Virus record (IMG/VR): IMGVR_UViG_3300035101_000015
Location: 81,843-145,842 of that record
Length of the DNA stretch: 64,000 nucleotides
Direction: 5' to 3' (one strand)
Origin: a virus
Taxonomy: Duplodnaviria; Caudoviricetes
Position 1 is the first letter of the stretch. Every line of letters begins with the position of its first letter. The notes beneath the pieces are model-generated. The model saw only the letters and a program-made list of their open reading frames with translations. It did not search any database and was not told the origin of the DNA. The translations under genes were made by a program, and so were the position numbers. Below, piece after piece: positions 5,066 through 5,210 of this stretch.

Positions 5066-5210
5066 GCAGCAGACCGGAGACTCTGGGTTATCGGTTAGAG
5101 CGTTGGGCTCTGCTTCGGCGAGTCCAGAGGTCGCGGGTTCAAGTCCAGCCTCCTTGCCTCGGCGGGGAGTAGCTCAGTAACAACACCCAGTTTCGTCACT
5201 TGTCTGCTGC
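5066..5210 (+). ncRNA. Y RNA containing a tRNA-like domain circularly permuted at the D-loop (YrlA-related)
   Basis: Terminal stem gcagcagac/gtctgctgc with GACCGGA...GGGTTATC and ACTTGTC. Inside, in order: 3' D half ggttagagc, anticodon-like stem, aggtc, T arm gcggg-ttcaagt-ccagc, closed acceptor hairpin ctccttgcc-tc-ggcggggag, 5' D half tagctcagt. Immediately upstream of Ro60. Confidence 0.85.

What the first reader, a model, noticed from the sequence alone, without database searches (positions are those of the whole stretch)
5066..5210. Y RNA whose tRNA domain is permuted at the D-loop rather than the anticodon arm
Seen: inside the Ro stem the order is 3' D half (ggttagagc), an extended anticodon stem with a cUUCGg-capped tip, variable region, T arm, closed acceptor hairpin, then 5' D half (tagctcagt). 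The tRNA is therefore opened in the D-loop and keeps all four arms. The YrlA layout I recall replaces the anticodon arm with the Ro stem. With the downstream chimeras, this locus shows two non-canonical ways of fusing the module to a tRNA, suggesting modular recombination.
Basis: partly seen in the sequence, partly recalled or inferred. Interest (0 to 1): 0.8.

Follow-up and report, generated by a model that had tools for sequence, protein, structure and literature searches.

The report
Y RNA with D-loop-opened tRNA mimic
Just upstream of a phage's Ro60 gene lies a partner RNA (Y RNA) whose tRNA look-alike part is a whole tRNA cloverleaf cut open in its D-loop, a layout kept in at least 16 other Ro60 loci and different from the bacterial Y RNA layouts in the papers I could read.

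Summary
At window 5066-5210 a long Ro60-docking stem encloses, in this order: D-loop/D-stem 3' half, a capped anticodon-like hairpin, AGGUC, T arm, closed 8-bp acceptor hairpin, and U8-A9 plus the D-stem 5' half.

It is not a one-off or a local recombination product. Two covariance models found the same layout in 16 other Ro60 loci: 13 Thermoleophilia-type actinobacterial MAGs, 2 Anaerolineae MAGs and 1 metagenome contig.
- 36 of 47 pairs change on both sides, and 88.9% of cells pair against about 40% in slid controls.
- The D stem pairs in 17 of 17, with one G-C to U-A swap.
- When the acceptor loop is cut and the D-loop halves are joined in silico, ARAGORN calls a tRNA in 16 of 17. It calls none in native order and none in 340 shuffles.

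Rfam's YrlA model, which is opened at the anticodon stem and has an intact D arm, does not hit any of the eight members scanned.

In bacteria this RNA usually lies between a canonical YrlA and rsr. I found no description in the papers I could read.

Verdict: a real, conserved new structural variant of tRNA-mimicking Y RNAs. Function is inferred. The scan's index showed this layout only on this same stretch, not on other DNA.

The parts
5066..5088 (+). 5' strand of the Ro60-docking stem (GCAGCAGAC-C-GG-A-GAC-U-CUGGGU)
   Evidence: Pairs with 5185-5210. Helices 1-3 covary in 17 sequences. The whole stem matches the nematode stem-bulge RNA model RF01656 (I recall these as Y RNA homologues) at 25.8 bits, E 0.03, below gathering.
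5089..5092 (+). UAUC, the end of the conserved GGUUAUC motif; single-stranded 5' linker to the tRNA core
   Evidence: Conserved as U(A/C)(U/C)C in all 17 members.
5093..5101 (+). D-arm 3' half: G18 G19 U U A21 plus D-stem strand GAGC (22-25)
   Evidence: Read from sequence. GAGC pairs with GCUC at 5172-5175. The D stem pairs in 17 of 17, with G-C to U-A in L222.
5102..5102 (+). Purine at tRNA position 26
   Evidence: G or A in all 17 members.
5103..5127 (+). Anticodon-arm position: 8 bp, one bulged U, 2 bp, UUCG loop; no anticodon
   Evidence: This helix has changes on both sides at 7 of 10 pairs. Length varies among members from 5 bp with a 7-nt loop to 10 bp with a 4-nt loop.
5128..5132 (+). 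Variable region AGGUC (44-48); C48 faces G15
   Evidence: G15 with C48 in 14 of 17 members. L222 reads A and U at these places by eye, though the model alignment gaps them. L339 and L336 read G and G.
5133..5149 (+). T arm: GCGGG-UUCAAGU-CCAGC (one G.A mismatch)
   Evidence: 4 of 5 pairs change on both sides in the family, and the UUCRA loop is invariant.
5150..5169 (+). Closed acceptor stem: CUCCUUGC-CUCG-GCGGGGAG (8 bp)
   Evidence: All 8 pairs change on both sides in the family.
5170..5178 (+). U8 A9 plus D-stem strand GCUC (10-13) plus A14 G15 U16: the D-arm 5' half
   Evidence: UA-GCUC-AG is nearly invariant in the family.
5179..5184 (+). AACAAC, single-stranded 3' linker back to the docking stem
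   Evidence: 4-12 nt, A/C-rich and not conserved among members.
5185..5210 (+). 3' strand of the Ro60-docking stem (ACCCAG-UUUC-GUC-A-CU-U-GUCUGCUGC)
5248..5309 (+). Neighbouring short hairpin Y RNA with the same docking motifs, followed by a U run
   Evidence: Read from sequence. Not part of the permuted RNA, but probably in the same transcription unit (inference).
5351..7081 (+). Ro60 (rsr) gene, the presumed protein partner
   Evidence: Pfam TROVE at 8e-44 and vWA_Ro60 at 4e-55.

Best explanation
This is a genuine Y RNA, meaning a small RNA that docks on the phage's Ro60 protein through the long bulged stem formed by its two ends. It belongs to a distinct, conserved structural subclass.

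Its second module is a complete tRNA four-way junction: D stem, capped anticodon-like stem, T arm and loop-closed acceptor stem. The tRNA residues for the standard tertiary contacts are in place: U8/A14, G15/C48, G18-G19 facing the UUCRA T-loop, and a purine at 26.

The chain enters and leaves this module through the D-loop, between nt 16/17 and G18, by two single-stranded linkers (UAUC and an A-rich 4-12 nt stretch). In YrlA the chain enters and leaves through the anticodon stem.

Shown here: the sequence anatomy, conservation, covariation, the position beside rsr, and tRNA-likeness after un-permutation.

Inferred:
- The RNA is bound by Ro60.
- The core folds into an L shape.
- Like other Y RNA effector modules, it recruits or mimics a substrate for a tRNA-recognising factor. 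It would hang from the elbow side, so the anticodon-stem end and acceptor end are free. The anticodon stem is not fused to the Ro60 stem.

It does not decode: most members have a 4-nt cap where the anticodon loop would be.
For: - Anatomy.
- Ro60 gene: it starts 141 nt downstream on the same strand.
- Homologues: a single-sequence covariance model finds L079 2819-2963 at 52 bits, directly upstream of its Ro60 gene. 17 of 47 pairs change on both sides, and 95.7% of cells pair against about 40% in slid controls.
- Wider family: the two-sequence model finds 15 more at 44.6-69.4 bits, while canonical YrlAs score 42 bits or less, except two at 48.5-48.6.
- Family counts: 88.9% of cells pair, 36 of 47 pairs change on both sides, 0 of 500 shuffles reach the observed values, and slid controls give 38-48%.
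- Independent folding: RNAalifold predicts the Ro stem, D stem, AC stem and T stem on a structure-blind MAFFT alignment.
- Un-permutation: ARAGORN calls a tRNA in 16 of 17 after un-permutation, 0 of 17 in native order and 0 of 340 shuffles.
- GG placement: GG directly after UUAUC goes with the lack of an intact D arm downstream, odds ratio 12.6.
- Rfam: YrlA does not hit any of the eight members scanned, yet hits the canonical YrlA next to six of them.
Against: - There is no expression, end-mapping, Ro60-binding or probing data.
- No consensus promoter or terminator was found.
- The D stem is almost invariant (GAGC/GCUC). It has one compensatory event in 17 sequences, so covariation gives it only weak independent support.
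- The thermodynamic MFE of the single sequence prefers another helix over the AC and T arms, by 3.6 kcal/mol.
- 13 of the 17 members come from one clade, so the counts are not independent.
- The T stem in the window has a G.A mismatch.
Confidence: 0.75

Rival explanations
1. The RNA is the same, but it works as a two-piece molecule. RNase P cuts the closed acceptor hairpin, the 3' end is trimmed and gets CCA, and the halves stay paired. This gives a Ro60-bound tRNA mimic with a free acceptor end. This is an add-on to the best explanation and does not replace it.
For: The acceptor hairpin has 8 bp here and 7-10 bp in relatives. Chen et al. 2014 (PMC4201824) showed that M. smegmatis YrlA, which has a 7-bp acceptor stem, is cut by RNase P in vitro and carries CCA in vivo. 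The same phage encodes acceptor-open tRNA-Y chimeras downstream.
Against: No read data are available. The loop is only 4 nt here, and no CCA is encoded after the discriminator position. Chen et al. saw no such cleavage for Salmonella YrlA or Deinococcus Yrn1. The Ro stem leaving the D-loop lies near the elbow, which RNase P uses for recognition (established knowledge; the steric effect was not tested).
Confidence: 0.25
2. The tRNA-likeness is a relic. The RNA arose from the junction of two tandem tRNA genes. Only the docking stem matters today, and the inner part is a spacer whose D stem and tertiary contacts need not form.
For: Tandem-tRNA junctions score as local hits of the model (L055, L037, L067, L003 and L100). 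The bacterial loci sit next to large tRNA arrays. Wang et al. 2018 proposed a dimeric-tRNA origin for YrlA.
Against: tRNA positions 8, 14, 15, 18, 19, 21, 26, 48 and the T-loop are kept across two bacterial phyla and a phage, while the helices drift with compensatory changes. Forms that lost the D stem still keep the GG. A spacer would not hold these.
Confidence: 0.1
3. It is a circularly permuted tRNA gene whose transcript is matured into a working tRNA, as in the red alga Cyanidioschyzon merolae.
For: Un-permuted, it is called a tRNA by ARAGORN. L214 and L222 have 5-bp stems with 7-nt loops.
Against: The window RNA and most members have a 4-nt cap or an irregular loop where the anticodon loop would be. 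The ends are locked in a conserved Ro60-docking stem. Wang et al. 2018 note that no bacterial splicing-endonuclease pathway for this has been reported.
Confidence: 0.03

Closest known systems
YrlA (Y RNA-like A; Rfam RF02553; Chen et al. 2014, PMC4201824; structure in Wang et al. 2018, 10.1101/312249)
   Same: It is encoded beside rsr on the same strand. It has a terminal Ro60-docking stem with the GGUUAUC-type motif, a tRNA-like effector module with a T arm and a loop-closed acceptor stem, and the tRNA tertiary-contact residues. It is a circular permutation of a tRNA.
   Different: YrlA is opened at the anticodon stem, which is formed by the 5' and 3' strands and runs on into the Ro stem. It has an intact D stem-loop after the acceptor hairpin. 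Here the anticodon position is a closed hairpin, the D arm is split, and the core is joined to the Ro stem by single-stranded linkers. The Rfam model gives no hit.
Yrn1 of Deinococcus radiodurans (Chen et al. 2014, text read)
   Same: As that paper describes it, Yrn1 has D-loop-like features, then an anticodon-like arm, then a T arm, in this 5'-to-3' order. That is the order of the first half of the present RNA.
   Different: Yrn1 is described as lacking a full D arm and a V arm, and no closed acceptor hairpin is mentioned. I could not fetch its sequence, so this comparison rests on the paper's text only.
Acceptor-open tRNA-Y chimeras of the same phage (window 7337-7594) and of other phages, noted earlier in this scan (e1-5762004, e1-5529253)
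   Same: The same docking helix is fused to a tRNA cloverleaf beside the same Ro60 gene.
   Different: There the acceptor ends are free and the docking helix is a loop-closed hairpin in the anticodon loop. Here the acceptor is closed and the docking helix carries the RNA's ends and leaves from the D-loop.
YrlB-position RNAs (the second Y RNA between YrlA and rsr; Chen et al. 2014)
   Same: In the bacterial loci the D-loop-opened RNA lies between a canonical YrlA and rsr. This is where M. smegmatis YrlB lies, and YrlB is said to have 'a possible T-arm'.
   Different: In Gordonia polyisoprenivorans the RNA in that position is a plain 72-nt hairpin without a tRNA core. No Mycobacteriales locus scored above 34 bits. 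I could not inspect M. smegmatis YrlB itself.
Circularly permuted tRNA genes of algae and an archaeon (Soma et al. 2007 and others, as cited in Wang et al. 2018)
   Same: The gene order is permuted, and the acceptor stem is initially closed by a loop.
   Different: Those are precursors matured into decoding tRNAs. This one lacks an anticodon loop and is fixed to a Ro60-docking stem. The break positions in the algal genes are recalled from memory and were not checked.

Membership tests
Y RNA (Ro60-partner RNA, functional class) | Encoded next to a Ro60/TROVE gene, usually on the same strand | tested here: met
   The RNA lies at 5066-5210 and rsr at 5351-7081, both on +. All 16 relatives lie within about 1.7 kb of their Ro60 gene on the same strand.
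Y RNA (Ro60-partner RNA, functional class) | The 5' and 3' ends form a long bulged stem carrying the conserved docking helix | tested here: met
   The stem forms in the MFE fold and covaries. The same motifs (GACCGGA...GGGUUAUC and ACUUGUC) occur in the short Y RNAs at 5248-5309 and 7136-7202. The stem matches RF01656 end to end at 25.8 bits.
Y RNA (Ro60-partner RNA, functional class) | Physically bound by Ro60 | not testable with these tools
   This needs co-immunoprecipitation or co-expression.
YrlA (Rfam RF02553) | T arm followed by a loop-closed acceptor-like stem | tested here: met
   5133-5149 and 5150-5169.
YrlA (Rfam RF02553) | Intact D stem-loop 3' of the acceptor hairpin | tested here: not met
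   After GCUC-AGU comes the linker and the Ro stem. The matching GAGC lies about 70 nt upstream.
YrlA (Rfam RF02553) | Anticodon stem formed by the two strands that run on into the Ro stem | tested here: not met
   The anticodon position is a closed hairpin at 5103-5127. The helix that closes the junction is the D stem.
YrlA (Rfam RF02553) | Score at or above the Rfam gathering threshold (69 bits) | tested here: not met
   No YrlA hit at E<=10 on 5066-5210. No hit at E<=0.01 on seven relatives, while neighbouring canonical YrlAs score 38-45 bits.
tRNA | Free paired 5' and 3' acceptor ends and a 7-nt anticodon loop | tested here: not met
   The acceptor is closed by CUCG and the anticodon position is capped by UUCG. 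ARAGORN and Rfam tRNA find nothing in native order.
tRNA | Cloverleaf four-way junction with conserved residues at 8, 14, 15, 18, 19, 21, 26, 48 and 53-61 | tested here: met
   ARAGORN calls a tRNA in 16 of 17 after un-permutation at the D-loop.

The most novel reading that the evidence does not exclude
D-loop-opened Y RNAs are an old second class of Ro60 partner that works side by side with YrlA; the two are often made as a tandem pair. Because it hangs the tRNA mimic from its elbow side, this class shows a different face of the tRNA shape (free anticodon-stem end and acceptor end, crowded elbow). It would therefore recruit or decoy a different tRNA-recognising factor than YrlA does. Together with the acceptor-open chimeras, this would mean that Ro60 systems have used three of the four arms of the cloverleaf as attachment points.
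Probability: 0.3. Interest if true: 0.75.

Novelty: new variant of a known kind. Interest (0 to 1): 0.6.

Why it matters
What the tRNA-like module of bacterial Y RNAs is for remains open. Chen et al. 2014 say the potential interactors are not known, and Wang et al. 2018 speak of an unknown factor.

A second, conserved way of wiring the same tRNA core to the Ro60-docking stem gives a natural comparison. Features kept in both layouts are the T arm, the closed acceptor, the G18/G19-T-loop elbow contacts and the Levitt pair. These are probably what the partner reads. The anticodon stem's continuity with the Ro stem is evidently dispensable.

It also shows that the Rfam YrlA model misses a whole class of Ro60 partner RNAs in Thermoleophilia, Anaerolineae and at least one phage. 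Surveys based on that model therefore undercount Y RNAs.

Finally, it supports an origin from tandem tRNA genes, and the loci sit beside tRNA arrays.

Tried and rejected
- **Phage DNA search.** A blastn search of 'phages' with 4900-7750 matched only inside the Ro60 gene, and no RNA homologue was found.
- **Exact-pattern scan.** Scanning IMG/VR for GGGTTATCGGTTAGAGC gave one unrelated contig, L002.
- **Single-protein locus search.** It found no relatives in the viral contigs.
- **Closest Ro60 relatives.** P0002 and P0003 are 80% identical.
- **RNA-model search in whole genomes.** The genome search missed three of four known members, so I did not use it for tallies.
- **My first regex classifiers.** They were too strict and missed most members, so I relied on the covariance models.
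- **Local model hits.** Many local hits (model positions 33-113) turned out to be canonical YrlAs or tandem tRNAs, not D-split RNAs.
- **80 Mycobacteriales and Propionibacteriales loci.** They gave only canonical YrlAs at 34 bits or less. M. smegmatis itself was not among them.
- **Promoter and terminator scan.** Nothing was found.
- **Papers I could not read.** The supplement of Chen et al. 2014, the 2020 Annual Review by Sim et al. and Burroughs & Aravind 2016 were not held. 'Not described' therefore means not found in what I could read.
- **Chance match.** Rejected.

Full report
**What is there.** The window is part of a 146-kb IMG/VR virus record. A gene at 5351-7081 (+) encodes a Ro60 orthologue, with Pfam TROVE at 8e-44 and vWA_Ro60 at 4e-55. 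It is preceded by a MoxR-like AAA_5 gene and a DUF2201 vWA/metallopeptidase gene.

- The two ends form a long bulged stem (5066-5088 with 5185-5210).
- UAUC is followed by GGUUAGAGC, which is tRNA positions 18-25.
- G26 comes next.
- A 10-bp hairpin with one bulge and a UUCG cap follows.
- AGGUC (44-48) comes next.
- The T arm has the loop UUCAAGU.
- An 8-bp hairpin closed by CUCG stands where the acceptor stem belongs.
- UA-GCUC-AGU (8-16) and an AACAAC linker lead back to the stem.

GAGC pairs with GCUC. The four helices D, anticodon-like, T and acceptor therefore meet in one junction as in a tRNA, but the open helix is the D arm. U8, A14, G15/C48, G18, G19, A21, R26 and the T-loop are all in their tRNA places.

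This fold costs 3.6 kcal/mol more than the MFE, and the MFE also keeps the D stem. The MFE z-score is -3.1.

**What the canonical layout is.** The Rfam YrlA consensus, printed, runs outer stem, T arm, acceptor hairpin, complete D stem-loop, outer stem. Wang et al. 2018 describe the AC stem as made of nt 15-27 and 83-93. [quoted passage not shown]

YrlA is thus opened at the anticodon stem. The YrlA model gives no match on 5066-5210 even at E<=10. Only the stem matches a family, the nematode stem-bulge RNAs (RF01656, 25.8 bits, below gathering). ARAGORN finds no tRNA there.

**Relatives.** I fetched 3-kb flanks of Ro60 genes from metagenomes, IMG/VR and GTDB genomes.
- A covariance model of the window sequence alone found one full-length match of the same layout, L079 2819-2963 at 52 bits. 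It lies 38 nt upstream of that contig's Ro60 start and just after a canonical YrlA.
- Between these two RNAs, 17 of 47 pairs differ on both sides, and 95.7% of cells pair against 36-44% when partners are slid.
- The two-sequence model then found 15 more at 44.6-69.4 bits. Two are in Anaerolineae MAGs (L214, L222). Thirteen are in Gaiellaceae, Solirubrobacterales and unclassified actinobacterial MAGs.
- Canonical YrlAs in the same loci score 42 bits or less, except two at 48.5-48.6 bits that I checked by eye.

**Structure support.** On the 17-sequence alignment:
- 88.9% of cells pair, against 38-48% in slid controls.
- 36 of 47 pairs change on both sides, and 0 of 500 shuffles reach the observed values.
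- By helix, changes on both sides occur at 7 of 10 anticodon-like pairs, 4 of 5 T pairs, 8 of 8 acceptor pairs and 16 of 20 Ro-stem pairs.
- The D stem pairs in 17 of 17 but is nearly invariant. Its one change is compensatory, G-C to U-A in L222. By eye, L222 also has A and U where the others have G15 and C48; the model alignment gaps these positions.

This alignment was fitted to the model. I therefore also folded a plain MAFFT alignment, and RNAalifold again predicted the Ro stem, D stem, anticodon-like stem and T stem.

As a direct test of 'permuted tRNA', I cut each RNA in the acceptor loop and joined the two D-loop halves inside a script. ARAGORN then calls a tRNA in 16 of 17, against 0 of 17 in native order and 0 of 340 shuffles.

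**Internal logic of the family.** Among 165 model hits that have a Ro 5' motif and a T-loop, GG directly after UUAUC goes with the lack of an intact D arm downstream. The counts are 33 against 20 versus 13 against 99, odds ratio 12.6. The classifier is rough and the rows are not independent.

Verrucomicrobiota carry a shorter form that keeps the GG, a hairpin, the T arm and the closed acceptor, but has no D stem. This fits a need for G18/G19 to meet the T-loop whichever way the chain is wired.

**Distribution.**
- No other viral locus of 80 has the layout (top score 34 bits).
- One of 80 metagenome loci has it.
- Two of about 40 Chloroflexota loci have it.
- None of 80 Mycobacteriales and Propionibacteriales loci has it.
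- 13 of the 21 loci with Ro60 at 70% identity or more to the Gaiellaceae query have it.
- In a sample of 401 genomes of that class, only 6 have Ro60, and 4 of those have the RNA beside it by BLASTN.

In at least eight loci a canonical YrlA lies 11-50 nt upstream of the D-loop-opened RNA. The two are probably made together (inference). The RNA therefore sits where M. smegmatis YrlB sits, and Chen et al. noted only 'a possible T-arm' for YrlB. In Gordonia that slot holds a plain hairpin. I could not look at M. smegmatis itself.

**How it most likely works.**
- Shown: an RNA gene beside rsr with a conserved docking stem and a conserved, covarying tRNA core wired through the D-loop.
- Inferred from what is established for Y RNAs (Chen et al. 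2014; Wang et al. 2018): Ro60 binds the stem, and the core folds into an L shape and serves as the effector or gate module.
- Inferred from the geometry: in YrlA the core is rigidly continuous with the stem through the anticodon helix. Here it is tethered by two unconserved single strands that leave the variable pocket of the D-loop. The anticodon-stem end is free and the elbow is crowded.
- Most members have no anticodon loop, so it is not a decoder.
[quoted passage not shown] This was not tested.

**Novelty and limits.** Chen et al. 2014, Wang et al. 2018, a 2026 preprint on bacterial tRNA mimics and every held paper from 2018 onward that mentions YrlA describe no D-loop opening. Rfam 15 has no family that covers it.

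I could not read the supplement of Chen et al., the 2020 Annual Review or Burroughs & Aravind 2016. There are no expression or binding data. Thirteen of the members are from one clade.

The scan's index lists this same stretch read in other windows, with the reports withheld. It returned no note of this layout on other DNA.

Noticed in passing
L326, L328, L330, L333 and L339 (about 1-3000 of each): Thermoleophilia-type MAG loci carry about 15 to 27 tandem tRNA genes directly upstream of canonical YrlA, the D-loop-opened Y RNA and Ro60. Ro60 is present in only 6 of 401 sampled genomes of that class. This looks like a mobile tRNA-array/Ro60 island.
   Followed up: partly
L174 2215-2325, L181 1382-1498, L196 1886-1996, L205 2039-2149, L206 153-263, L217 775-892, L226 1810-1925, L228 2447-2563, L238 1705-1816, L180 732-858: A Verrucomicrobiota short form (111-127 nt) runs docking stem, UUAUC-GGUGAAG, a hairpin, T arm, closed acceptor hairpin, docking stem. 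The GG is kept, but there is no D stem at all.
   Followed up: partly
window 7210-7330: A tRNA-like gene with free 7-bp acceptor ends carries the loop-closed docking hairpin, apparently between the D stem and an intact-looking anticodon arm (loop CUCACAA). The insertion would thus be at position 26, not in the anticodon loop as in the two chimeras at 7337-7594.
   Followed up: partly
window 5219-5239: A small hairpin, CACCAGG-CUGACUA-CUUGGUG, lies between the D-loop-opened RNA and the short Y RNA. It has the same helix geometry as the core of the docking helix.
   Followed up: no
window 2310-4933: A MoxR-like AAA_5 gene and a DUF2201 vWA/metallopeptidase gene lie directly upstream of the Y RNAs and Ro60. 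From memory, an association of TROVE proteins with MoxR-vWA pairs has been described (Burroughs and Aravind 2016). That paper was not readable here.
   Followed up: no
L054 2659-2793, L146 2429-2506, L120 2393-2524: Some otherwise canonical YrlAs have a small hairpin with a 3-7-nt loop between UUAUC and AGGUC, the 'V' arm of Chen et al. 2014. In L146 and L120 it looks like an anticodon arm.
   Followed up: no
L448 1340-1412: In Gordonia polyisoprenivorans the RNA between YrlA and rsr is a plain ~72-nt hairpin Y RNA with the GGUUAUC motif and no tRNA core.
   Followed up: no
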